Shown: positions 1,005 to 32,321 of the stretch, one piece after another
Numbering within the stretch: the first letter of the stretch is position 1
Layout of the letters: each line of letters begins with the position of its first letter
Virus record (IMG/VR): IMGVR_UViG_3300020005_000001
Origin: a virus
DNA length: 42,405 nucleotides
Strand: one strand, 5' to 3'
Made by a program: the position numbers and the translations under genes
Notes under the pieces: generated by a model
The model's database searches: none
Seen by the model: the letters and a program-made list of their open reading frames with translations, nothing else
Told to the model about the DNA's origin: nothing

Positions 1005-2998
1005 CGCCGTTCCTGCGCTTCGAACGGAATCTCAAGACCGTAAAAGGCAAACATCTGCGTGGTCGCCGCGTCAAAATCACCCAAGCGCAGCATGAACGAC
1101 CCGATCCCGGCAAGCTCCAGGCCCTCCACCTTGGAATGGTAGGGCGCAAAGTCCGTGGCCCCGGTCGCCCACGCGACGGTTTTGGTCACAATCAACGGCG
1201 TGGCCTGCGTAGCGCCGTTATGGCCGAAATCTCCGTAGAGCCCCACCTTGAATTGTTCGTTCGACGACGCGCGCGGGGAGGTATAGACGATGGAGGGTTG
1301 TCCCACGCTGATGTTGTAGAGCAGCCCGGCCGGCGCGTATTCCTTGGTGTAGATGATGCCCGTATAACTCGTCCCAGCGTCCGTGGTCACGCCATCGACA
1401 TCGCAGCGCCAAATCTGGCCTGGCGCGGTACTGTAGGCGATGAGCGGCTTGAGATCGCGGCTCATGGACGCGCCGATCGTGGCAGAGAACATCACGGACG
1501 CGTACGCATGCGTCGATTCCCCGGAGTCCCAACTCCACCCTTTGCGCACTTGGTTGTCGGATTCCGGCCGCCCGTTGCGCGCGTCAAACTTCAGTTTGAA
1601 ATCGGTGTAGACGCTACTGGCGACGGTGGGGACGAAGAACCAGACCTGATGCTTGTCGCCGTGATAGACCGCGTGACACGGCCCCGCCAGATTGACGGTG
1701 GCCCAGAGGTCCGAGACATCCGCCCCGAGATACTGCACCCCATTGGAGCCGACCCGATACGGTCCCTTCGCGCTCAGAAAGTAAATGCAGGGGTTGCCGT
1801 TCTCGTCCTCCGCCGAGACGATGGACTGATGGCGGATACAGCCGACCGAGGTGCTGATCGAGTAGCGGGCATAGGGATCGGCCGGGTTGCTGGTGGGAAC
1901 AAACTTCCAGATCCGTCGATAGCTGAACACGTAGAACGCCCCGTCGAGCGGGCCGCCGAGTCCCGTGATCGGCGCGTCCACCGTGTAGGTCAGGCCAACC
2001 GGGATGCGTTCGGAGTCTCCGACGTCGTTGTCCCCGATGACGGGCGTGATGTAGATGCCCTGTGTTCGCGACTTGACATAGGCTTCGGTGGCAACGTTCG
2101 ACTGTCGCCCCGCTAGAATGAGACGCGAGTCCGTCGCGATGATGTACTGCGCGGCGGGCGGCGGGCGGTTGATGCCGTCTACCGCGGAGAGCGTTGAGCC
2201 GTTCGCATCGGATGTGGGAATCGTCGCGCTGTTGTTGGAGTAGGTCGTGGTGCCGATAGCCGTCGTCGCGATGCGATACCACGGCCCCGTCGCGGCGTCA
2301 GACGCCTCCAGTTCCCAATGGGTCGCATCCTCCCCCGTCGTCACGCGCGTGACATCCACGCCAGCTTTCGAGGCAATCGTAAAGGACAAGACCGGGGACG
2401 CCTCAGACCGTCGCCGTATGTCCGATCCCGACAGGTCGATATTGCGGACGCGATAGTAGCGCGTGAACGACAAGCCACCCGCCGCGCCATTGGAGCCGGT
2501 CGGCGCGATCGGTGTCGCAATGCCCGTCTTGCGCACCTTGGACAGCAGGGGGTCCCAGACATACGAGCGGTTGTCCGTCGCGGCGGATTTGTAGCAGAAG
2601 TAGAGAAATCCGTTCAGCCCCGCGCTCACGACGTTATCGGCATCCGACGCGGCGTTGAGGTTCTGCACCAGCGAGGCTTCCACCCACGTCGTCCCACCCG
2701 CGAGCCGCGCGAACCGATTCACCACGGTGCGGTCAACCGCCCACAGTTCCGCGGCGGTTTCATCCGCCGCCGGGACGAACCGATGCAGCGACCCAATCGG
2801 CCCGCCGAAGGGTCCCCCGGAACTGAACGTGACACCAATCGGCGCGGCGCCCCATCGCTTTGTGCCCATCGGGGATTGCCAGAAATCCACGTTCCGGGCT
2901 TCCTGACATTGGTCGTCGGGGATATTCAGCGGCGTGTCGTAGCCGTTCCGACCCCCGGAGAGGTTGGTGATCGTGATCGAGGTCTCTTTGGACGCCAT
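1001..2998 (-). CDS. Large virion structural protein, putative tail nozzle / tubular-B-like.
   Basis: 665-aa ORF directly upstream of the tailspike, coupled on both sides (TAATG at 2998, ATGA at 1001-1004). Beta-rich composition. The function is positional inference only. Confidence 0.5.
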   Translation of the reverse strand: MASKETSITITNLSGGRNGYDTPLNIPDDQCQEARNVDFWQSPMGTKRWGAAPIGVTFSSGGPFGGPIGSLHRFVPAADETAAELWAVDRTVVNRFARLAGGTTWVEASLVQNLNAASDADNVVSAGLNGFLYFCYKSAATDNRSYVWDPLLSKVRKTGIATPIAPTGSNGAAGGLSFTRYYRVRNIDLSGSDIRRRSEASPVLSFTIASKAGVDVTRVTTGEDATHWELEASDAATGPWYRIATTAIGTTTYSNNSATIPTSDANGSTLSAVDGINRPPPAAQYIIATDSRLILAGRQSNVATEAYVKSRTQGIYITPVIGDNDVGDSERIPVGLTYTVDAPITGLGGPLDGAFYVFSYRRIWKFVPTSNPADPYARYSISTSVGCIRHQSIVSAEDENGNPCIYFLSAKGPYRVGSNGVQYLGADVSDLWATVNLAGPCHAVYHGDKHQVWFFVPTVASSVYTDFKLKFDARNGRPESDNQVRKGWSWDSGESTHAYASVMFSATIGASMSRDLKPLIAYSTAPGQIWRCDVDGVTTDAGTSYTGIIYTKEYAPAGLLYNISVGQPSIVYTSPRASSNEQFKVGLYGDFGHNGATQATPLIVTKTVAWATGATDFAPYHSKVEGLELAGIGSFMLRLGDFDAATTQMFAFYGLEIPFEAQERR

Positions 2999-3969
2999 TA
3001 CCAGCGCCCCTCAGGAAACCACGGCCCGAGATTCGATCCAGTGCGCTCACTGTTTCCGCCCGGTACCACCGTGAACCCCGGTGGACAGGTCACCTGATAG
3101 AGCAAGTTCCGGACGCCCTCGTCGTATTGCAACTTCGCGACGACGAACCGCTTGTCATCGGTCTTTTCGTATTCCTTCATCCGTGCGCCCATCGCCAGCA
3201 GCCGATGGAAGCGCGGCGGGAGCAACGGTTCGTCCGTGGCCGCCGTGAGCGTAAAGAGTTCGTGTTCGATGTCGCAGGTGTAGGTCAGCGCCGACGACGG
3301 CGTGAGGCAGAGGATGAAACCCCAATAGCGCGAGGTCGTTTGCCCTCGAGGAATCACCGCGAAGTTGTTGCCCGCCACCGCGGCATCAGAGAGCACAATG
3401 TCCCCCACCGCCGCCACGCTCAGCGCAAACTGCGTCACGTCGATGTAATCGGTCAACGTGCCGACCTGCACGCGCGTGGTGCCGTTCAACGTCGTGGCCG
3501 CCACGGAGTGCGGGAAGCCGCCCGCACGGATCGCGTCGATCGTGACGGTGACGGCCGTATCCGACGCGCTCGAGCTGTTGACCCACAACCCGGTGCCGGT
3601 CGCCGCCATCTGATCCGCGAGGGCGACGGTCCCGAGCGGGATATACCACTCGGGAACGCCTTCGTTGAGTGCGGGCGCGGGGTTGCGGGCGCGATACCAC
3701 GCGAGCGAACGCGGCTGGAGTGTGACCTGATTCGCCGTGTCCACTATCGACCGGATCTGGGCCTGCGTGGACAGGCCATACCGCGCCCGACTCGCCGAGC
3801 TATTGAGCGTGAGCGTGCCGTAGAGCAACGACCGCAGCGAGGGATTCGACAGCAGTTCCTCGTGTACTTCATTCACGTACGCAGTGATCCGAGTCACGAC
3901 AGACGAATCCGGCGCGGCCAAATAATTGAGGCGTCGGTACGTGTCGAGCAAGATCGCCGCGAGCGTCAT
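2998..3969 (-). CDS. Virion structural protein, putative head-tail adaptor / tubular-A-like.
   Basis: 323-aa ORF between the head genes and the nozzle-like gene. No recognisable motif. Confidence 0.45.
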   Translation of the reverse strand: MTLAAILLDTYRRLNYLAAPDSSVVTRITAYVNEVHEELLSNPSLRSLLYGTLTLNSSASRARYGLSTQAQIRSIVDTANQVTLQPRSLAWYRARNPAPALNEGVPEWYIPLGTVALADQMAATGTGLWVNSSSASDTAVTVTIDAIRAGGFPHSVAATTLNGTTRVQVGTLTDYIDVTQFALSVAAVGDIVLSDAAVAGNNFAVIPRGQTTSRYWGFILCLTPSSALTYTCDIEHELFTLTAATDEPLLPPRFHRLLAMGARMKEYEKTDDKRFVVAKLQYDEGVRNLLYQVTCPPGFTVVPGGNSERTGSNLGPWFPEGRW

Positions 3970-3970
3970 G

Positions 3971-4606
3971 CTACGCGCTCACCGTCTGGGAATCCTGACT
4001 GGCTTTCACCAGCCGCTCCAGTTCCGCGATGCGCGCGATCATGTCCAGTGGGGTCACCGCCTTCGGTCCCTGCGCGAGTTCCATTAGGATCTCCGGCAGC
4101 GACTTGGGCAGATCGTTCAGTTCGTCCAGCGTGAACGACGGCACATTGACCTGGAGCCGTCGCCCGTTCTGGTCGATCTTCGCCCTCCAGGTTTCGCCAC
4201 GCGCCGTGCAATCCGCCGTGATGGCGTTGAAGCTCTCGATCTCGAGCGGCGTCAGTTCGTCCTCGGTTTCGCGGTGGTTGTTAAAGTACGTCTCACGTAC
4301 CAAGCGCGGCTTGGGCCGCTTGAGATCGCCCTCCGGGTACGAGAACACGCTCTTGTGCTCGTGATCGGCGTTGGAGTGCCGGACGGTGCGCCTGGATTCC
4401 TGCTCGGCGCGATTCGTCTTCAGAATCTCCGCCAGCGCCTCCGGCGTCAGACCCGCCGCGGGCGAACTCGCCGGCAAGCTGGCGATGAGTTCGCGCAACT
4501 GCTCCATGCTCATCGCAATGAGCGGGGAGGCGGCCGGAGCCGCCGCGGGCCGTTCCGGTGCATTCGTGTCGTTCGCTGCTTTTTCCACTGTCCACCCTTT
4601 CGCCAT
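3971..4606 (-). CDS. Hypothetical structural-module protein (211 aa).
   Basis: ORF 3971..4780 trimmed to ATG 4606, which has a GAGGAA RBS and avoids overlap with 4614..4907. Confidence 0.55.
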   Translation of the reverse strand: MAKGWTVEKAANDTNAPERPAAAPAASPLIAMSMEQLRELIASLPASSPAAGLTPEALAEILKTNRAEQESRRTVRHSNADHEHKSVFSYPEGDLKRPKPRLVRETYFNNHRETEDELTPLEIESFNAITADCTARGETWRAKIDQNGRRLQVNVPSFTLDELNDLPKSLPEILMELAQGPKAVTPLDMIARIAELERLVKASQDSQTVSA

Positions 4607-27249: not shown

Positions 27250-27380
27250 CGGCCACACCGTTCCTGATCGGCGGCGTCTAAGGCGGCGCCCCCTCGGACT
27301 ATGATCAACACCGCACAGGTGAGGAAGCCCAGTACCACGCCGATGACGAGTCCGCAGGCGACGAGCAGGATGGACATCAT
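27246..27380 (-). CDS. Single-pass TM microprotein (44 aa).
   Basis: MMSILLVACGLVIGVVLGFLTCAVLIIVRGG...; ATGA overlap at 27377-27380. Confidence 0.5.
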   Translation of the reverse strand: MMSILLVACGLVIGVVLGFLTCAVLIIVRGGAALDAADQERCGR

Positions 27381-27493
27381 TGCGTCACCATCATCCAAGC
27401 CCCAGCAATCACCAAGCTCACCAGGATCAGGGCCACGGACACCACGAACAGGGCCGCGATCCAATCCCACCGGCTCACATCGGCTTCGGTCAT
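27377..27493 (-). CDS. Single-pass TM microprotein (38 aa).
   Basis: MTEADVSRWDWIAALFVVSVALILVSLVIAGAWMMVTQ; ATGA overlap at 27490-27493. Confidence 0.5.
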   Translation of the reverse strand: MTEADVSRWDWIAALFVVSVALILVSLVIAGAWMMVTQ

Positions 27494-27933
27494 GCCCATG
27501 TCCTGTGCGTTTCAGCGATGTGTTCCTGACCGTCGTATTCGCTGATTTCGTAGTCCGTGCCGTCCGGTATCTCCACGACGCTCAGTTCCGCATGAGGACC
27601 GTTGGCCGCGTCTCCGAGTTCTTCCACCACGCGAATCACGAGCGGATGCGTGCGGTTCTCTCGCGTCCATCCGTCCCAATACCGCTGCGCGATCCCGGCC
27701 TTGCCCTTGTACTTGTGGTAGATGTCGGTAAGGCTGCTCTCGCCTTCGGGTGTCAACTCCCGGTCAAAGATGACTTCGCCCTCATTGGCTGGCTGCGGCT
27801 TATATAGACGCGTCTTTTGGTCGCGCTCCTGCTCGATGTACTTGCGCACCGGCACGCCGTACTCCGCGAGCTTTTCGTACGCTGCATCGCTCAGGCCGAA
27901 ACCGCCGAAACACTTGTTGATCACGACCTTCAT
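27490..27933 (-). CDS. Conserved phage protein (MKVVINKCFGGFGLS family).
   Basis: ORF track. Confidence 0.6.
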   Translation of the reverse strand: MKVVINKCFGGFGLSDAAYEKLAEYGVPVRKYIEQERDQKTRLYKPQPANEGEVIFDRELTPEGESSLTDIYHKYKGKAGIAQRYWDGWTRENRTHPLVIRVVEELGDAANGPHAELSVVEIPDGTDYEISEYDGQEHIAETHRTWA

Positions 27934-28178
27934 GCGCGCCTCCGGTCACGGTCGTACGTCTCGCTCCACTGCTCGTAACTCAGCACCTTGCGGGATGAAC
28001 CACGAACCGTCGATGCGGGTTGCGGAGTCACAATGCTCACCGCCTGTCCCTTCGCGTCAAACGTTCTTCGTGGTCCGTCGTACTTCTCTAACTTCAAAAG
28101 CCGATCTCTGAGATCAGAATGGTTCGGGGTCCTCACACGGGTGAGATGCACGAAGAACGCTTTGACGCGCGTGGTCAT
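27930..28178 (-). CDS. Hypothetical protein (82 aa).
   Basis: ORF track; ATGA-coupled on both sides. Confidence 0.5.
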   Translation of the reverse strand: MTTRVKAFFVHLTRVRTPNHSDLRDRLLKLEKYDGPRRTFDAKGQAVSIVTPQPASTVRGSSRKVLSYEQWSETYDRDRRRA

Positions 28179-28540
28179 CCTGTGATCTTCTCACCGACTG
28201 GATCTACCACGTCCACCGACACAGGCTCACCGTTCGCCCACTTCTCGGAGATGCGGGCATGGCCTGCCAGTGCCTCGGTTTCCGTGCTATAGCGATCGGA
28301 GTCCATCTCTCCAAACGACGTAACCTTGCCGTCCTTGTCGCACGGGAACACCATCGTCTCGAAGATGAGCGGCGGGCCAGAACCGAAGGCGTGATTCAGG
28401 CCCAGCCAAACCGTGCTCACCCAATAACCAGACGGGAGGATCGTTTCGGCCACGCGCGCCTCGTCTATGCCGCCCTCAAGGCGGTTGGCCCACTGCTTCA
28501 GCGTCATTGGATTGCCTTGACGGTCGTAGTACTCACTCAT
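28175..28540 (-). CDS. Conserved phage protein (VSTVWLGLNH...PLIFETMVF family).
   Basis: Trimmed to ATG 28540 (AGAGG RBS). Confidence 0.6.
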   Translation of the reverse strand: MSEYYDRQGNPMTLKQWANRLEGGIDEARVAETILPSGYWVSTVWLGLNHAFGSGPPLIFETMVFPCDKDGKVTSFGEMDSDRYSTETEALAGHARISEKWANGEPVSVDVVDPVGEKITG

Positions 28541-28544
28541 GCGA

Positions 28545-28754
28545 TCAACCTCTGTCCGTGGCTGCGTGGATGTGAGCGGGCGGTACGTCAGGACTCCCAG
28601 AGCGCGTCGAATCGTCGTCTCCGAACTCACGCACAAGGCAGTCGTTGCAGATCCCGTGGGAAGCCGTCGCGTTCCGAGGATCGTTGCGGTCCCACGTTGG
28701 GCACCACGCGCAGATCGTTAAGAGGACATCGCCGGGCTTGGAGAGGATGGTCAT
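28545..28754 (-). CDS. Small zinc-binding protein (69 aa).
   Basis: CAWC...CNDC. Start taken at ATG 28754. Confidence 0.5.
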   Translation of the reverse strand: MTILSKPGDVLLTICAWCPTWDRNDPRNATASHGICNDCLVREFGDDDSTRSGSPDVPPAHIHAATDRG

Positions 28755-28756
28755 GA

Positions 28757-29038
28757 CTAGATAGGCCAGAAACAGCCGAGCACCCAATACATCGGGTCAC
28801 TCGTCGTGAGGTTCTTGCAGGGGTCCGTTATGACCACCTCGTCGTCAGCGCGGGCCACCGTCGCCCCAACGGTGCCAAGGATGCCGATGGTCACCACGGC
28901 CACGAGGACCCGCTTGACCTTGGTCGGCCGATACGCCGCGAGATGCGCGATGAGCACCGCGAGCGCCATGGACACCGACAAGCCCCCAGCCGTCGCCAGC
29001 GCATCCGGCCACACCGAGACGATCACCATCGCGGTCAT
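28757..29038 (-). CDS. Membrane protein (about 3 TM, 93 aa).
   Basis: Hydrophobic segments in the ORF-track translation. Confidence 0.55.
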   Translation of the reverse strand: MTAMVIVSVWPDALATAGGLSVSMALAVLIAHLAAYRPTKVKRVLVAVVTIGILGTVGATVARADDEVVITDPCKNLTTSDPMYWVLGCFWPI

Positions 29039-29391
29039 GCCGTCTTTCTCCAGTCGGGAATCAGATCCGCGATTTTCTTGGCACCGAGCACCGCCGCGCC
29101 ACGGATAAGGGCGAGGTCCTCCGGCGCGATCACCGCCGCCCCGAGGCGTGCGGCGCGACGCCGGAGGAAGGACACGTGAAACCCCATCGGGAGGAACGAG
29201 AGCCGATAGGCGTTAAGGGGTTCCGTGCCGGCAAGCTGACGGGAGAGTTGCTGTTCGCTTGAGAGCCCCATCTCAATCGCGGCGGCCTTCTGGCTGATCC
29301 CGCTGTCGGCCAGTGCCCCCACGATGTCCTGCGCGTAGGCGCGGGAGTCCTCCGTATGGCCGGTCCACGCGGCGAAGAGGCCGCCCATCAT
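29035..29391 (-). CDS. HTH DNA-binding protein (cII-like position).
   Basis: GISQKAAAIEMGLSSEQQLSRQLAG. Confidence 0.5.
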   Translation of the reverse strand: MMGGLFAAWTGHTEDSRAYAQDIVGALADSGISQKAAAIEMGLSSEQQLSRQLAGTEPLNAYRLSFLPMGFHVSFLRRRAARLGAAVIAPEDLALIRGAAVLGAKKIADLIPDWRKTA

Positions 29392-29645
29392 CGGGCGACC
29401 CCCGCAAGCGTCTTGTAGGTACGAACCGGACGGGCCTGGAGTAGAGTCGCTCCCGTGACGAGATCAGGCTGGACAGGCGCGGCGGGTTGGGTTACTGTGG
29501 CGCATCGCTCACGCGATGCCCGCCGACAGAAATTCCCAAGGAAATCGGTAACTTTGCAAACCGCAAAGTAAACCGACCATACATTATCGGAACCCGCATC
29601 AATCGCCAGCAATTCCGCCGTCCGCGTTGTAGGACAGACACTCAT
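29388..29645 (-). CDS. Hypothetical protein (85 aa).
   Basis: Trimmed to ATG 29645. Contains the inverted repeat at 29552-29570. Confidence 0.45.
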   Translation of the reverse strand: MSVCPTTRTAELLAIDAGSDNVWSVYFAVCKVTDFLGNFCRRASRERCATVTQPAAPVQPDLVTGATLLQARPVRTYKTLAGVAR

Positions 29646-29646
29646 A

Positions 29647-29871
29647 CTACGCAACCTTCGCAATTTCGGCGATCGTCTCGATCGGCACATTCGTGGTTTT
29701 CGCCAGCCGCAGCACGACGTCAAGTGAGGCGCGGCGTTTGCCCCCGAGGATGTTGCACAGGTGGGATCTGCTGATTCCACACAACTTAGCGAGAGCGCCC
29801 TGGTTGGTCCCCGTCGCGTCTTGCCATGCTTCGACTGAGGAAAAGGCGCGTTTTGGACGGCGATAATTCAT
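29647..29871 (-). CDS. Cro-like XRE-family HTH regulator, first gene of the leftward operon.
   Basis: QGALAKLCGISRSHLCNILGGKRRASLDVVLRLAKTTNVPIETI. Confidence 0.7.
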   Translation of the reverse strand: MNYRRPKRAFSSVEAWQDATGTNQGALAKLCGISRSHLCNILGGKRRASLDVVLRLAKTTNVPIETIAEIAKVA

Positions 29872-29902
29872 GTGACCTCAGAGAAAGTCGTAACGTGTGA
29901 CG

Positions 29903-29930
29903 ATATTACGCCTTTTGCCGAAGTTTGCAA
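29903..29930 (-). promoter_or_regulatory. Leftward early promoter (TTGCAA - 16 nt - TAATAT).
   Basis: Minus-strand reading cTTGCAAacttcggcaaaaggcgTAATATcgtc, about 30 nt upstream of the GAGG RBS of the Cro-like gene. Lies in the AT-richer 166-bp divergent gap. Confidence 0.55.
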
Positions 29931-30037
29931 GCCCAAACAAGCCTCAAAGTAAGAAAAACTCTAACTTACAGATTTCATTGGACTTACGTGTTTCGTCCAG
30001 CAACAATGTAGGACTAAGACTGCGAGTGAAGGACGCC

Positions 30038-30517
30038 ATGACGACGCGCCACGAGAACGCCGCCGCTCGCGTGCGACGACGCATCGCAGAGTGGGCGAAA
30101 AGCGAAGGTCACGGGAGCCGGAAGCGGCTGGCGGATGCCGTCAAGGGTCTCTACGGGAAAGCCCGGTCCGCCTCATGGGTCACGGACCTCATCGACGGTC
30201 CAGACCATGGCGGACAGGATTTGCGCCTCCGCGATCTCGACGCCGTCGCGGAGGTGATGGGGATTCCACCCGGCGATCTGGTCCGACGCGACGACAACAT
30301 GTACGCGGAAGTCACCCCGTCAGAGCTTCGGATTCTCCGTTTTCATCGGTCGCTCCCAGATGTGACGCGTCATCACATGATGGGCTACTTCGATTACATC
30401 TATAATCTGCAACAGCGGGCGCTGGAGAGTCAGGCGCGGGACCGCGACGAACGCACGGCGGAAGCGAAGCGCCAGCGCGCTCGGGATCAACAGACACGCA
30501 AGCGTCCGCCCGCGTAG
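30038..30517 (+). CDS. cI-like HTH repressor (159 aa), divergent from the Cro-like gene.
   Basis: ORF 29897..30517 trimmed to ATG 30038 (GAAGGA RBS). RRRIAEWAKSEGHGSRKRLADAVKG...LRDLDAVAEVMGIPPGDLV XRE-type HTH with a C-terminal helical/basic tail. Confidence 0.6.
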   Translation: MTTRHENAAARVRRRIAEWAKSEGHGSRKRLADAVKGLYGKARSASWVTDLIDGPDHGGQDLRLRDLDAVAEVMGIPPGDLVRRDDNMYAEVTPSELRILRFHRSLPDVTRHHMMGYFDYIYNLQQRALESQARDRDERTAEAKRQRARDQQTRKRPPA

Positions 30518-30734
30518 GACGAACACTGATTGACAGCGAGCCGTACACTGCTTGGTATGCGATCCCATCTTGCGCATCTCGCCTTGTTCGTCGCCCTATG
30601 GTCCACCGCCGGCGCGGTCCTCTGGGTACGATGGGTGCCGTGCCCACAGCGCGACTGTCTCAGGACATCGATTTCACAGGTGCCGTGAACGGCGGGCGAG
30701 ATGGAAGAAACCGACCTTAGCCAGAGATGCGCTC

Positions 30735-30763
30735 TTGACTATCTCGCGATAATCATTTACTGT
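30735..30763 (+). promoter_or_regulatory. Sigma70-like promoter (TTGACT - 17 nt - TACTGT) driving the structured RNAs and rsr.
   Basis: The predicted +1 at about 30770-30772 coincides with the first base of the RNA unit 1 terminal stem. Confidence 0.5.
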
Positions 30764-30771
30764 CTCTCCTA

Positions 30772-30866
30772 GCCGCCGTGGCGTAGGTGAGGGATACTTC
30801 TTTTGGAGAACGGAAGCGGGCCGAAAGGCAGCGCACGAAAACCCCTCATCGTTTGTTCCCGGTGGC
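30772..30866 (+). ncRNA. Structured RNA unit 1, Y-RNA-like candidate (95 nt).
   Basis: Terminal stem GCCGCCG/CGGUGGC. Conserved bulged helix UGGCGUAG // CGUUUGUUCC. Inner stem GGUGAGGG/CCCUCAUC. Hairpins UUCU[UUUGG]AGAA and GCC[GAAA]GGC. Same fold as unit 2, with compensatory changes. Confidence 0.6.
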
Positions 30867-30875
30867 CTTCTCTCT

Positions 30876-30957
30876 CTCGCCGTGGCGTAGATTGCGGTTA
30901 CTTCATTGCTTATGAACGCCCGCAAGGGCATTTCCGCAGTCGCTTGTTCCCGGCGAG
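30876..30957 (+). ncRNA. Structured RNA unit 2, Y-RNA-like candidate (82 nt).
   Basis: CUCGCCG/CGGCGAG. UGGCGUAG // CGCUUGUUCC. GAUUGCGG/CCGCAGUC. UUCAU[UGCUU]AUGAA and GCCC[GCAA]GGGC. Ends 7 nt before the rsr AGGAGG. Confidence 0.6.
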
Positions 30958-30974
30958 GTTCTTTAGGAGGCAGC

Positions 30975-32321
30975 ATGGCGCGCATAAATGTCGGATCGTC
31001 GGCGTTTGCAGGGACCACGCACGAAGGTGCGCCCGCACGTGCGTTGACGTCCGAGCAGGAATTGCGGCGCTCCGTGCTGGCCTGCCTGCTCTGGGAGGAC
31101 GGCTTTTACGAGTCCGGCAAGTCTGTCGCGGATCGTATCGCGGCACTCGTGCCCACCGTGGCGCCGGAACGTGTCGCCGCACTCGCCATTGAAGCCAGTT
31201 CGCAGATGCACCTCCGGCATACGCCGCTGTTCCTTGTGCGCGAGATGGCGCGGCACGTCTCGCATCGGCCTTTCGTCCGAGCCACGCTGGCGGCCGTCAT
31301 TCAGCGCGCTGACGAACTCACGGAGTTCTTGGCGATCTATTGGGGTGGTGGCGATAAGCGCAAGGCGAAAAACCGGCCGCTGCCGAAGTCTGTGCAGCGT
31401 GGACTAGCTGACGCCTTCGCCAAGTTCAACGGCTACCAGCTCGCCAAGTACAACCGGGACGCGCCGATCACGCTGCGCGATGCGCTGTTCCTCTCGCATG
31501 CGGAACCGAAGGACGATGCGCAGGCGGCGATCTGGAAGCAACTGATTGGGGGGACCCTGCCGGCGCCGGACACGTGGGAAGTCGCCATCACGGCAGCGGG
31601 CAAGGACGCGGCGAAAAAGCGCGCCGAGTGGACGCGCCTCTTGACCGAGCGGAAACTCGGCGGGTTCGCGCTGATCCGCAATCTGCGGAACTTGCAGGGC
31701 TGCAAGGTGGCCGATGCACTCATCCGCTCCGCACTCACCGACATGAAGCCGGATCGGATTCTGCCGTTCCGGTTCTTGGCAGCGGTTCGCCACGCACCGA
31801 CGTTTGCGGCTGAACTGGAATCGGCCATGTTCAAGAACCTTGCCGACCAGCCGCATTTCGACGGCATGACCGTGGTGCTCGTGGACGGGTCCGCGTCCAT
31901 GAATGCGGCGCTATCGGCCAAGTCCGATATGACGCGGCACGATGCGGCGCTCGGTGTCGCCATCGCGGCGCGCGAGTTGTCGGAGTCCTGCCGCGTGTTC
32001 GCCTACTCATCGCGGATGGTGGAGGTTCCGGCCTACCGTGGGCTGGCGCTCAGCGCCGCGATTCTCGGCGCGGTCCCTGCGCAGTCCACCTTGCTTGGCG
32101 CGGCCGTGCGGTGGCTGAATACGAACGTGGAGTACCGCCGACTGATTGTTATTACAGACGAACAGTCGCACGATCCGGTCCCTGGCCCGAACGGGCGCGG
32201 CTACGTCATCAACGTGGCGATGAGCAAGCCGGGTATCGGCTACGGACCGTGGAACCACATCGATGGATGGAGCGACCGCGTCCTCGACTTCGTCTGGGCG
32301 GACGAGTCCGAGCGTGCCTGA
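30975..32321 (+). CDS. rsr: Ro60 ortholog (Rsr): TROVE domain plus vWA/MIDAS domain.
   Basis: ATG 30975 has AGGAGG 5 nt upstream. LLWEDGFYE, LFLVREM, ELTEFLAIYW, YQLAKYNRDAPITLRDALFLSHAEP, LIRNLRNL, ILPFRFLAA, VVLVDGSASM, ITDEQ parallel human Ro60 (KYKQRNGWSHKDLLRLSH.KP, LLRNLGKM, IHPFHIL, LAVDVSASM, FTDNE). Confidence 0.9.
   Translation: MARINVGSSAFAGTTHEGAPARALTSEQELRRSVLACLLWEDGFYESGKSVADRIAALVPTVAPERVAALAIEASSQMHLRHTPLFLVREMARHVSHRPFVRATLAAVIQRADELTEFLAIYWGGGDKRKAKNRPLPKSVQRGLADAFAKFNGYQLAKYNRDAPITLRDALFLSHAEPKDDAQAAIWKQLIGGTLPAPDTWEVAITAAGKDAAKKRAEWTRLLTERKLGGFALIRNLRNLQGCKVADALIRSALTDMKPDRILPFRFLAAVRHAPTFAAELESAMFKNLADQPHFDGMTVVLVDGSASMNAALSAKSDMTRHDAALGVAIAARELSESCRVFAYSSRMVEVPAYRGLALSAAILGAVPAQSTLLGAAVRWLNTNVEYRRLIVITDEQSHDPVPGPNGRGYVINVAMSKPGIGYGPWNHIDGWSDRVLDFVWADESERA

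What the first reader, a model, noticed from the sequence alone, without database searches (positions are those of the whole stretch)
30735..30970. Two tandem structured RNAs with compensatory base changes, between a promoter and the phage Ro60 gene: candidate divergent Y RNAs
**Shared sequence.** Segments 30772-30866 and 30876-30957 share the blocks GCCGUGGCGUAG (30775-86 / 30879-90), UACUUC, and CG(U/C)UUGUUCC (30850-59 / 30941-50).

**Shared fold.** Both fold the same way:
- 7-bp terminal stem: GCCGCCG/CGGUGGC versus CUCGCCG/CGGCGAG.
- 8-bp inner stem: GGUGAGGG/CCCUCAUC versus GAUUGCGG/CCGCAGUC.
- Two apical hairpins: UUCU[UUUGG]AGAA versus UUCAU[UGCUU]AUGAA, and GNRA-capped GCC[GAAA]GGC versus GCCC[GCAA]GGGC.

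**Covariation.** Five pairs change on both strands while keeping pairing: G-C to C-G and C-G to U-A in stem 1; G-C to U-A, A-U to G-C and G-C to C-G in stem 2. The bulged helix between the two stems is conserved in sequence, as expected for a protein-binding site.

**Context.** A TTGACT-17-TACTGT promoter places +1 at the first base of unit 1. Unit 2 ends 7 nt before the rsr Shine-Dalgarno.

**Interpretation.** Ro60/Rsr proteins bind Y RNAs through a conserved helix formed by the RNA 5' and 3' ends, and bacterial Y RNAs are normally encoded next to rsr. I could not find the T-arm-like GUUCRAAUC module described for YrlA-type RNAs. These may therefore be a different, undescribed Y-RNA class, or a cis-acting Ro-responsive leader.
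Basis: partly seen in the sequence, partly recalled or inferred. Interest (0 to 1): 0.9.

Follow-up and report, generated by a model that had tools for sequence, protein, structure and literature searches.

The report
Two tRNA-less phage Y RNAs
Just upstream of this phage's Ro60 gene lie two small structured RNAs from a very large, uncatalogued family of Ro-linked "Y RNAs"; they keep the conserved Ro-binding stem but lack the tRNA-like part, so they are a new variant of a known kind of RNA, not a new kind.

Summary

**Family membership.** A covariance model built only from 28 units of other phages and metagenomes scores them 60.7 and 68.2 bits. Nothing else in the 42 kb exceeds 12.5 bits.

**Link to Ro.**
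- The same module (GUGGYGWAG, 8-bp stem, YUACUUC ... CGYUUGUUCCC, terminal stem) occurs in arrays of 1-8 or more copies beside Ro/TROVE genes.
- It was found in 119 of 128 non-redundant Ro loci.
- Every one of 476 units counted against a Ro gene lies on the Ro strand, and most are upstream.
- Both helices covary strongly.

**Relation to YrlA.** Sister units in the same arrays carry tRNA-like T/D arms and give sub-threshold Rfam YrlA hits. The window units have only a UUC...GAA hairpin and a GNRA-capped hairpin. They get no Rfam or tRNA hit.

**Best reading.** They are Y RNAs co-transcribed with rsr from a TTGACT promoter and bound by the phage Ro60 through the conserved bulged stem. Ro binding and processing are untested.

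**Novelty.** Two Y-like RNAs upstream of a phage Ro60 gene have a 2025 precedent (Thermus phage phiLo), and tRNA-less Y RNAs (YrlB, Yrn2) are known. The news is the family-wide picture and the absence of any tRNA mimic in this phage.

The parts
30735..30763 (+). Putative sigma-70-type promoter: -35 TTGACT (30735-40), 17-nt spacer, weak -10 TACTGT (30758-63). It predicts a start at about 30769-30772, the first base of unit 1.
   Evidence: Sequence read. The consensus scanner did not call it (-10 matches only 3 of 6). Comparative support: TTGAC starts 31-44 nt upstream of the first unit in 42 of 177 arrays, peaking at -33 to -36, against about 6% of random 70-nt windows containing TTGAC. The window's is at -37.
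30772..30866 (+). Y RNA unit 1 (95 nt). Terminal stem 30772-78 / 30860-66. Conserved 5' strand UGGCGUAG 30779-86. Inner stem 30786-93 / 30843-50. AUAC-UUC 30794-30800. Hairpin A 30798-30810. Extended GNRA hairpin B 30816-30834 (GCC-GAAA-GGC 30820-29). Conserved 3' strand CGUUUGUUCC 30850-59.
   Evidence: Fold. R2 60.7 bits; R1 64.5 bits. The central module is nearly duplicated in L049:718-812, with a GCC/GGC to GUC/GAC compensatory change in hairpin B.
30867..30875 (+). 9-nt pyrimidine linker CUUCUCUCU between the units; a likely processing site.
   Evidence: Across arrays the linkers have a median length of 9 nt and are U/A-rich (T 0.36, A 0.28, against 0.22 and 0.24 in the loci). Processing itself is inferred.
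30876..30957 (+). Y RNA unit 2 (82 nt). Terminal stem 30876-82 / 30951-57. UGGCGUAG 30883-90. Inner stem 30890-97 / 30934-41. UUAC-UUC 30898-30904. Hairpin A 30902-16. Hairpin B GCCC-GCAA-GGGC 30918-29. CGCUUGUUCC 30941-50.
   Evidence: Fold (z = -3.6). R2 68.2 bits. Near twin L116:1799-1881(-) has the same hairpin A, and hairpin B has all 4 pairs flipped (GGGC-GAAA-GCCC). The same architecture is seen in L014:1478-1557, L028, L095, L118, L035, L127 and others.
30965..30977 (+). Shine-Dalgarno AGGAGG (30965-70) and ATG start (30975-77) of the Ro60 gene, 7 nt and 17 nt after unit 2.
   Evidence: Homologues align from residues 1-15 of the ATG-started protein. The distance from the last unit to the Ro start has a median of 34 nt in 113 loci.
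30975..32321 (+). Phage Ro60/Rsr (TROVE plus vWA with a DxSxS MIDAS motif), 448 aa; the presumed protein partner of the two RNAs.
   Evidence: Pfam TROVE 8.4e-17. phrog_850 'RNA-binding protein' 3.5e-40. Best PDB match is Thermus phage phiLo Ro60, 9KOP/9L5Y, residues 8-440, E 3e-19.

Best explanation
The two elements are small non-coding Y RNAs of the phage's own Ro60 protein.

**Proposed mechanism, with the basis for each step.**
1. Transcription starts at the TTGACT-17-TACTGT promoter, at or just before the first base of unit 1. It runs through both units into the Ro60 mRNA. This is inferred from position and comparative promoter data.
2. The precursor is cut in the short pyrimidine-rich linkers, releasing RNAs of about 95 and 82 nt. 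This is inferred by analogy with M. smegmatis YrlA/YrlB, which are processed from one precursor upstream of rsr.
3. Each RNA presents a stem closed by its 5' and 3' ends. Its middle is a sequence-conserved bulged helix: 5' GUGGCGUAG paired across a UU bulge with 3' UUGUUCC. This is the Ro60 docking site. Conservation and covariation are shown; binding is inferred.
4. The variable apical module projects from the Ro ring and either gates access to it or tethers a host partner. In this phage the module is a UUC...GAA hairpin plus a GNRA-capped hairpin, with no tRNA-like T or D arm. PNPase is the precedent for a partner. This step is inferred.

The two units carry different apical modules, each with its own relatives in other phages. 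They probably specify two different Ro RNPs.
For: **Family membership is independent of the window.** R2, built from 28 foreign units, gives 68.2 and 60.7 bits; the next hit in the window is 12.5 bits.

**Linkage to Ro.**
- R1 finds 66 units in 21 of 22 Ro loci from phage records and viral contigs, and 175 units in 62 of 73 loci from genomes and metagenomes. All are on the Ro strand.
- Of 119 viral contigs picked only by a 15-base DNA pattern, 85 have model hits and 80 encode Ro. All 235 units there lie on the Ro strand, none opposite; 214 are upstream and 21 downstream.
- 119 of 128 non-redundant Ro loci carry units.

**Structure.**
- On 138 distinct units, 89.1% of cells pair against 62.0% shuffled. 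The covariation score is 0.733 against 0.207 shuffled and 0.07-0.13 for slid registers. 17 of 19 pairs show double changes.
- The bulged helix GG/CC is nearly invariant while the flanking stems covary. This is the pattern expected of a protein site.

**Link to known Y RNAs.**
- The motif GGCGUAG is one substitution from the published Rsr-contact motif GNCGAAN0-1G. The published YUAY is matched by UUAC in unit 2; unit 1 has AUAC (PMC4201824).
- In the same arrays, units with the same stem enclose T/AS/D arms that hit Rfam YrlA at 30-52 bits.

**Apical hairpins are conserved as structure.**
- GNRA- or UUCG-capped hairpins occur in 32 of 69 long tRNA-less cores, against 5.1 in shuffles, with 21 different stems.
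- The twins L116 and L049 show fully compensatory changes.

**Promoter.** TTGAC is enriched at -31 to -44 in 42 of 177 arrays.

**Precedent.** Phage phiLo Ro60, the closest solved structure to this protein, was reported to bind Y-like RNAs and host PNPase (PMC12135203).
Against: - No experiment: neither expression, nor processing, nor Ro binding is shown for this phage or for any member of this exact RNA family.
- Rfam YrlA and Y_RNA give no hit, even at E<=10.
- The canonical GNCGAA motif is not matched exactly (U for A).
- Unit 1 has AUAC, not YUAY.
- The -10 hexamer is weak, so the transcription start is uncertain.
- The experimentally tested phiLo Yrl1/Yrl2 lie upstream of that gene and are not detected by my model. 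The experimental precedent is therefore by analogy, not homology.
- The effector of the apical module is unknown.
Confidence: 0.8

Rival explanations
1. A cis-acting leader. The two structures stay attached to the rsr mRNA. They act as an autoregulatory operator, in which Ro60 binding next to the Shine-Dalgarno sequence represses or activates its own translation, or as an mRNA-stabilising 5' structure. They would not be free Y RNAs.
For: - Unit 2 ends 7 nt before the SD.
- The last unit lies close to the Ro start in most loci, median 34 nt.
- In the window, the 12 nt before unit 1 (CUGUCUCUCCUA) can pair with UAGGAGGCAG over the SD (-12.7 kcal/mol).
- There is no convincing terminator between the units and rsr.
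Against: - The flank:SD pairing is not conserved: mean -8.41 kcal/mol against -8.10 +/- 0.27 for permuted partners in 102 loci. It would also lie largely upstream of the predicted start site.
- 21 of 235 units lie downstream of Ro.
- Some units have their own promoter and terminator (phiLo locus).
- Arrays reach at least 8 units with different apical modules, which is hard to explain as one operator.
- Known bacterial Y RNAs upstream of rsr are processed from the precursor (PMC4201824).
- This reading does not exclude the best explanation; both could hold.
Confidence: 0.1
2. Decayed remnants: former YrlA-type tRNA-like Y RNAs that lost their T and D arms and are now non-functional relics of a tandem array.
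For: - In sister units the order is V hairpin, T arm, tetraloop-capped AS hairpin, D arm.
- 31 of 61 T+D units have a GNRA/UNCG hairpin between T and D.
- The window's two hairpins look like V plus AS with T and D deleted.
Against: - Both units keep perfect stems, with compensatory changes relative to each other and to relatives.
- Both score near the top of the family: 68.2 and 60.7 bits with R2, 72.1 and 64.5 with R1.
- The two-hairpin type recurs in at least 47 distinct units.
- 22 of 119 Ro loci with units have no T arm at all. This argues for a maintained variant, not decay.
Confidence: 0.05
3. Generic RNA punctuation, either intrinsic terminators/attenuators or tRNA-like processing signals, unrelated to Ro binding.
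For: - The terminator scan flags the 3' half of each terminal stem plus the pyrimidine linker: 30846-30865 and 30940-30956.
- Ro genes often sit among tRNA genes.
Against: - The flagged stems are parts of larger covarying helices, and the tails (CCTTCTCTCT, GGTTCTTTAG) lack a real U run.
- There is no tRNA or other Rfam hit.
- The nearly invariant 5' and 3' strand motifs and the exclusive linkage to Ro genes are not features of terminators.
Confidence: 0.03

Closest known systems
YrlA (Rfam RF02553; Chen et al. 2014, PMC4201824)
   Same: - Encoded next to Ro60/rsr on the same strand.
- Stem formed by the 5' and 3' ends.
- 5'-strand motif close to GNCGAAN0-1G (here GGCGUAG).
- Conserved YUAY/UA after the inner stem: UUAC in unit 2, AUAC in unit 1.
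- A V-like hairpin and a tetraloop-capped hairpin resembling the AS arm.
- Sister units in the same arrays carry YrlA-like T/AS/D arms.
   Different: - No T arm and no D arm, so no tRNA mimicry.
- No RF02553 hit even at E<=10.
- The 3' strand (CGYUUGUUCCC) is strongly conserved here, whereas Chen et al. state that only the 5' strand is recognisable in the Salmonella and M. smegmatis RNAs.
- Even the tRNA-like sister units stay below the Rfam gathering score of 69 bits.
YrlB (S. Typhimurium, M. smegmatis) and Yrn2 (D. radiodurans): second, shorter Y RNAs
   Same: - Ro-bound Y RNAs encoded beside rsr.
- S. Typhimurium YrlB carries the GNCGAA-type motif (PMC4201824).
- Several Y RNAs per locus.
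   Different: [quoted passage not shown]
- The window units have a three-way junction with two apical hairpins.
- Salmonella YrlB orthologues were found only in S. enterica, whereas the module found here spans more than 100 phage and metagenome loci.
Yrl1/Yrl2 of Thermus phage phiLo (NAR 2025, PMC12135203; PDB 9KOP, 9L5Y)
   Same: - Two Y RNA-like sequences directly upstream of a phage Ro60 gene, one with two hairpins and one with one.
- That protein is the closest solved structure to the window's Ro60.
- Reported to bind phage Ro60 and host PNPase.
   Different: - They were picked by a CGAA motif plus RNAfold.
- My family model finds nothing upstream of phiLo Ro60. It finds two candidates downstream instead (27.5 and 15.1 bits).
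- The resemblance is therefore in arrangement, not demonstrated homology.
Metazoan Y RNAs (Rfam Y_RNA RF00019)
   Same: - About 80-110 nt.
- Terminal stem from the 5' and 3' ends.
- A conserved bulged helix as the Ro60 site, with a variable loop module for effectors.
   Different: - No sequence or model match.
- Different motif (GGUCCGA).
- Pol III genes with a 3' U tract that binds La.
- Not co-transcribed with Ro60.

Membership tests
Y RNA (Ro60-associated ncRNA, general definition) | Encoded close to the Ro60 orthologue on the same strand (bacterial Y RNAs: within about 4 kb; PMC4201824) | tested here: met
   Units end 109 nt and 17 nt before the Ro60 ATG, on the same strand. In related loci, all 476 units counted against a Ro gene are on the Ro strand.
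Y RNA (Ro60-associated ncRNA, general definition) | 80-130 nt, with a long stem formed by the 5' and 3' ends that holds the Ro60 site, plus a second module of loops and stem-loops | tested here: met
   The units are 95 and 82 nt. Stems are supported by covariation. The apical two-hairpin module recurs with compensatory changes.
Y RNA (Ro60-associated ncRNA, general definition) | Conserved Ro-contact motif on the 5' strand (GGUCCGA in animals; GNCGAAN0-1G in bacteria) | tested here: inconclusive
   The window has GGCGUAG, which is GNCG-U-A-G with one substitution. The family consensus is GGYGWAG. The exact GNCGAAN0-1G occurs in only 33 of 409 distinct units, though the sample is biased by the search pattern.
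Y RNA (Ro60-associated ncRNA, general definition) | Physically bound and stabilised by Ro60 | not testable with these tools
   Needs co-immunoprecipitation or EMSA.
YrlA (RF02553) | T-arm-like stem-loop (GUUCRANYC loop) and D-arm-like stem-loop forming a tRNA-like domain | tested here: not met
   No T or D motif in either unit. ARAGORN finds nothing in the window. There is no tRNA hit in 30600-31050 at E<=10.
YrlA (RF02553) | Rfam covariance-model score at or above the gathering threshold (69 bits) | tested here: not met
   No hit at gathering in the whole window, and none at E<=10 in 30600-31050.
YrlA (RF02553) | Conserved YUAY after the stem, at the start of the V loop | tested here: inconclusive
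   Unit 2 has UUAC, which fits. Unit 1 has AUAC, with a purine at the first position. In the family, UUACUUC occurs 159 times and AUACUUC 73 times.
YrlB / Yrn2-type second Y RNAs | [quoted passage not shown] | tested here: not met
   Both units fold with a three-way junction and two apical hairpins. Many sister units of 63-72 nt are simple hairpins.
Ro-linked stem family defined here (models R1/R2) | Terminal stem, GUGGYGWAG, 8-bp stem, YUACUUC ... CGYUUGUUCCC, terminal stem; scored with a model that excludes the window | tested here: met
   R2 gives 68.2 and 60.7 bits, E about 1e-16 and 1e-14.
tRNA / tRNA-like element | Cloverleaf recognised by ARAGORN or RF00005 | tested here: not met
Intrinsic terminator | GC-rich hairpin followed by a U run | tested here: not met
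   The scan flags 30846-65 and 30940-56, but the tails are CCTTCTCTCT and GGTTCTTTAG, and the stems are halves of larger covarying helices.

The most novel reading that the evidence does not exclude
The window's RNAs may be members of a very large family of Ro-linked RNAs that is uncatalogued in Rfam and, as far as I could read, undescribed at family level.
- A Ro-docking helix conserved on both strands is combined, cassette-like, with interchangeable apical modules: none, V+AS two-hairpin, T-arm only, or a full tRNA mimic.
- The units form arrays of up to at least 8 copies.
- About a fifth of phage Ro loci, including this one, carry only tRNA-less versions.

[quoted passage not shown] It would also imply that the two-hairpin GNRA module recruits a different, unknown effector.
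Probability: 0.35. Interest if true: 0.55.

Novelty: new variant of a known kind. Interest (0 to 1): 0.45.

Why it matters
Y RNAs are the obligate partners that decide what the Ro60 ring does, yet what their effector modules recruit in bacteria is largely unknown, and in phages only phiLo has been examined.

- **What this locus offers.** It gives a minimal, clean case. One phage Ro60 is paired with two short Y RNAs that keep the conserved docking helix but carry a simple two-hairpin module in place of a tRNA mimic.
- **What the comparative set offers.** More than 400 distinct units were collected, and their stems covary. Together they define the docking helix on both strands. They also supply a covariance model that finds Y RNAs that Rfam's YrlA model misses at its gathering score.
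- **What becomes testable.** One can test which part of a bacterial or phage Y RNA binds Ro60, and what the non-tRNA modules recruit during infection.
- **Annotation.** Several annotated phage 'tRNAs' and at least one 'hypothetical protein' CDS appear to be Y RNA units.

Tried and rejected
1. **Rfam.** At gathering score on the whole window, and at E<=10 on 30600-31050, there were no hits. The units are not recognisable as YrlA, Y_RNA or tRNA by existing models.
2. **ARAGORN.** No tRNA or tmRNA in the window.
3. **Close relatives of the window phage.**
   - Megablast of 25 kb against phage records found nothing.
   - The closest Ro proteins with upstream sequence are about 49-56% identical.
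   - The only 83% match (L165) lacks the upstream region.
   - Orthologous comparison of the exact locus was therefore impossible, and the evidence is family-level.
4. **Anti-SD hypothesis.** CUCUCCUA before unit 1 can pair with the rsr SD. I rejected this as a conserved feature: -8.41 kcal/mol observed against -8.10 +/- 0.27 for permuted partners in 102 loci.
5. **Experimental anchor through phiLo.** My model does not hit the upstream region where the published Yrl1/Yrl2 lie. No homology to an experimentally bound phage Y RNA could be claimed.
6. **A bona fide YrlA in sister arrays.** None of 20 loci reached the Rfam gathering score. Only sub-threshold hits of 30-52 bits link the families.
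7. **Neighbouring ORFs.** Pfam and PHROGs gave nothing for 27301-35578, so gene context adds no functional clue.
8. **MAFFT alignment of two-hairpin units (A5).** It was not structurally consistent in the apical region. I quantified hairpin B with a script instead.
9. **Literature access.** The 2020 Annual Review on bacterial Ro60/Y RNAs and the supplements of Chen 2014 were not available. I cannot exclude that tRNA-less relatives of this family are mentioned there.
Full report
**1.

- GCCGTGGCGTAG lies at 30775-86 and 30879-90.
- CG(T/C)TTGTTCC lies at 30850-59 and 30941-50.
- TTGACT (30735-40), a 17-nt spacer and TACTGT (30758-63) precede unit 1.
- Unit 2 ends at 30957, 7 nt before AGGAGG (30965-70), and the ATG is at 30975.

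RNAfold returns the proposed architecture for both segments.
- Each has a 7-bp terminal stem.
- A short bulged helix follows, in which GG pairs with CC and CG pairs with UG across a UU bulge.
- An 8-bp inner stem comes next, then two apical hairpins, the second GNRA-capped.
- Unit 1 folds at -38.9 kcal/mol (z = -2.1). Unit 2 folds at -35.3 kcal/mol (z = -3.6).

Five pairs differ on both sides between the units, two in the terminal stem and three in the inner stem.

The downstream ORF (30975-32321) is a Ro60/TROVE protein.
- Pfam TROVE gives 8.4e-17, and phrog_850 gives 3.5e-40.
- The best solved-structure match is the Ro60 of Thermus phage phiLo (9KOP/9L5Y), covering residues 8-440. The alignment shows a DxSxS MIDAS motif.

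The window itself is a novel phage.
- Megablast finds no match.
- It carries a terminase large subunit and a tail-spike-like protein.
- GC content is about 0.63.

**2. Existing libraries do not recognise the RNAs**

- Rfam 15 gives no hit at gathering score in the whole window.
- Rfam gives none at E<=10 in 30600-31050.
- ARAGORN finds no tRNA.

**3. The units belong to a large Ro-linked RNA family**

The closest Ro proteins in phage records belong to Xanthomonas, Brevundimonas and Caulobacter phages, at about 45-50% identity.
- In Xanthomonas phage MET23-P3, the roughly 700-nt gap upstream of the Ro gene holds five units.
- Some have T- and D-arm sequences and hit Rfam YrlA below threshold, at 52.3 and 37.5 bits against a gathering score of 69.
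- One is a 69-nt hairpin with the same conserved blocks as the window units.

A regex scan and then a MAFFT alignment of 20 short units from 12 loci plus the window gave a clean alignment.
- Invariant blocks are UGG.G..G, U.C.UC and G....UCCC.
- On this alignment the named structure pairs in 88.9% of cells, against 68.1% in shuffles.
- The covariation score is 0.60 against 0.20 (0 of 500 shuffles reach it). Slid registers give 0.10-0.22.
- 7 of 8 inner-stem pairs show double changes.

Covariance model R1 gave the following results.
- In the window it finds only the two units; the next hit is 11.8 bits.
- It finds 66 units in 21 of 22 Ro-anchored loci from phage records and viral contigs.
- It finds 175 units in 62 of 73 Ro-anchored genome and metagenome loci.
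- All of these units are on the Ro strand.

A 15-base DNA pattern (GTGGCGTAG-N8-TACTTC) was scanned over viral contigs without reference to Ro, and returned at least 119 contigs.
- 85 have model hits and 80 encode a Ro homologue.
- All 235 units there lie on the Ro strand and none on the opposite strand; 214 are upstream and 21 downstream.
- The 32 contigs with neither a model hit nor a Ro gene fit my rough estimate of chance matches for such a pattern; that estimate rests on an assumed collection size.

Among 128 non-redundant Ro loci with at least 900 nt of upstream sequence, 119 carry units.

On 138 distinct units from the Ro-anchored set:
- 89.1% of cells pair, against 62.0% shuffled.
- The covariation score is 0.733 against 0.207. 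Slid registers give 0.07-0.13.
- That alignment was fitted to the model and leans towards it. The independent MAFFT result points the same way.

Because the window units were in R1's seed, I built R2 from 28 units of other loci only.
- It scores the window units 68.2 and 60.7 bits.
- Nothing else in the window exceeds 12.5 bits.

**4. Relation to known Y RNAs**

Chen et al. 2014 (PMC4201824) define YrlA by several features:
- a 5' motif GNCGAAN0-1G, the proposed Rsr contact, compared there with the vertebrate GGUCCGA;
- a conserved YUAY at the start of a V loop;
- T, AS and D stem-loops forming a tRNA-like domain;
- a location within about 4 kb of rsr on the same strand.

They report YrlA-related sequences in 254 bacteria and 22 phages. 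[quoted passage not shown]

The window units compare as follows.
- They have GGCGUAG, one substitution from the published motif.
- They have AUAC and UUAC followed by UUC.
- Across my collection the family motif is GGYGWAG. It is followed by (U/A)UACUUC, and the 3' strand is UGUUCC.
- Here the 3' strand is as conserved as the 5' strand. Chen et al. note that only the 5' strand is recognisable in the Salmonella and M. smegmatis RNAs.
- The same stem module flanks YrlA-like tRNA domains in sister units. Examples are L001 2326-2451 and 2786-2923, L004 1996-2136, and the actinophages BRock and Atuin. This links the family to YrlA-type Y RNAs.
- None of those units reaches the Rfam gathering score.

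The window units fail YrlA's defining feature, the tRNA mimic. I therefore file them as Y RNAs with a YrlA-type docking stem, not as YrlA.

**5. The apical modules**

Classification covered 409 distinct unit sequences, of which 307 carry the parsable 5' motif; 102 could not be parsed.
- 189 lack T and D motifs. Most of these are simple hairpins of about 63-72 nt.
- At least 47 have two hairpins like the window units.

Each window unit has close relatives elsewhere.
- Unit 2's near twin is L116:1799-1881(-). Hairpin A is almost identical (UUCAUUGCCUAUGAA), and all four pairs of hairpin B are flipped (GGGC-GAAA-GCCC against GCCC-GCAA-GGGC).
- Unit 1's central module recurs in L049:718-812, with GCC/GGC changed to GUC/GAC.

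Hairpin B is conserved as a structure.
- A stem of at least 3 bp closed by a GNRA or UNCG tetraloop occurs in 32 of 69 long tRNA-less cores, against 5.1 in shuffles.
- Those hairpins use 21 different stems.
- In full tRNA-like units the same kind of hairpin sits between the T and D arms in 31 of 61 cases, which is the AS arm.

From this I infer that the window's hairpins correspond to the V and AS arms of YrlA with T and D absent. This is an inference from order and shape, not a demonstrated homology.

22 of the 119 Ro loci with units have no canonical T-arm motif in their flanks. The window phage is one of a sizeable minority without a tRNA mimic.

**6. Transcription and the cis-leader alternative**

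- Comparatively, TTGAC starts 31-44 nt upstream of the first unit in 42 of 177 arrays, with a sharp peak at -33 to -36. Only about 6% of random 70-nt windows contain TTGAC at all. The window's TTGACT is at -37. A start at or just before unit 1 is therefore plausible.
- Linkers between units have a median length of 9 nt and are U/A-rich.
- The last unit ends a median of 34 nt before the Ro start. No convincing terminator intervenes.
- Co-transcription with rsr followed by processing is the simplest reading. It matches M. smegmatis, where YrlA and YrlB are processed from one precursor upstream of rsr (PMC4201824).

I tested one concrete cis-regulatory idea.
- In the window, CUGUCUCUCCUA before unit 1 can pair with the SD region (-12.7 kcal/mol).
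- Such pairing is not conserved across 102 loci: -8.41 kcal/mol against -8.10 +/- 0.27 for permuted partners.
- It would also lie mostly upstream of the predicted start.
- Units also occur downstream of Ro, some with their own promoters.

An autoregulatory role of unit 2 cannot be excluded, but nothing requires it.

**7. Precedent and novelty**

- A 2025 paper on Thermus phage phiLo (PMC12135203) reports two Y RNA-like sequences upstream of that phage's Ro60 gene, one with two hairpins and one with one.
- They bound the protein in EMSA and cryo-EM and formed complexes with host PNPase.
- The arrangement 'two Y-like RNAs upstream of a phage Ro60' is therefore published.
- tRNA-less second Y RNAs (YrlB, Yrn2) are also known.

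What I could not find described is the following:
- the family-level picture of one docking helix, conserved on both strands, combined with interchangeable apical modules in arrays;
- the two-hairpin V+AS type;
- the existence of Ro phages with no tRNA mimic.

I could not read the 2020 Annual Review or the 2014 supplements, so this is a cautious statement. I rate the finding a new variant of a known kind, of moderate interest.

**8. Limits**

- No member of this exact family has been shown to bind Ro60.
- Expression, ends and processing are inferred.
- The effector of the two-hairpin module is unknown.
- No close relative of the window phage with the upstream region was available, so all comparative evidence is between paralogous and distantly orthologous units.

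Noticed in passing
L215 (Thermus phage phiLo, MH673673) 3992-4057 and 4182-4263, + strand: My family model finds two units immediately downstream of the phiLo Ro60 gene (27.5 and 15.1 bits). Both have GGGUACUUC and fold well (z = -3.2 and -4.6). The second is preceded by TTGACA at -36 and follows a terminator-like hairpin. They overlap the annotated CDS phiLo_25. The model finds nothing upstream, where the published Yrl1/Yrl2 were chosen by a CGAA motif. The family-type Y RNA candidates of phiLo may therefore be untested.
   Followed up: partly
L004 (Caulobacter phage CcrColossus) 2173-2240; L003 (Brevundimonas phage Gurke) 2811-2885: The annotated 'tRNA-Gln' in CcrColossus lies inside a Y RNA unit (L004 2168-2334, R1 45.2 bits). 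The annotated 'tRNA-Ser' in Gurke overlaps a sub-threshold YrlA hit (L003 2836-2934). These 'tRNAs' are probably the tRNA-like domains of Y RNAs in arrays of up to 8 units.
   Followed up: partly
window 32263-32466 (+), overlapping the Ro60 stop at 32319-21: A small ORF (67 aa from the ATG, or about 50 aa from a GTG at 32313) reads ...DIDKKLWKQFKERAAVEGRSLRWVIIEMIKHYV... It gives a sub-threshold ribbon-helix-helix hit (RHH_1 E 0.006; FitA-like 0.018). This may be a small DNA-binding protein translationally coupled to Ro60.
   Followed up: partly
window 30760-30771 with 30964-30973: CUGUCUCUCCUA just before unit 1 is complementary to UAGGAGGCAG over the rsr Shine-Dalgarno sequence (-12.7 kcal/mol), enclosing both units in a long-range stem in the MFE fold. 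This is not conserved in 102 other loci and is probably upstream of the transcription start.
   Followed up: yes
L175 1720-2932; L216 (Streptomyces phage BRock); L217 (Arthrobacter phage Atuin): In some loci Y RNA units are interleaved with bona fide tRNA genes. In L175 the array lies downstream of Ro, with tRNAs at 1800-1873 and 2937-3011. In the actinophages, Ro sits in the middle of tRNA clusters with weak family units between the tRNAs. This fits the proposed tRNA origin of Y RNAs.
   Followed up: no
L003 6387-6732 (Brevundimonas phage Gurke): A permuted tmRNA lies about 2 kb downstream of the phage Ro gene (RF04321, 57.7 bits, above its gathering score of 47).
   Followed up: no
L216 5013-5176 (Streptomyces phage BRock): A near-threshold manA RNA motif hit (49.7 bits against a gathering score of 55.2) lies between tRNA-Lys genes downstream of the Ro gene.
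   Followed up: no
window 27301-35578: None of nine candidate ORFs flanking the Ro locus has a Pfam or PHROGs match, and 25 kb of the window has no megablast match in phage records. The phage is poorly related to anything annotated.
   Followed up: no
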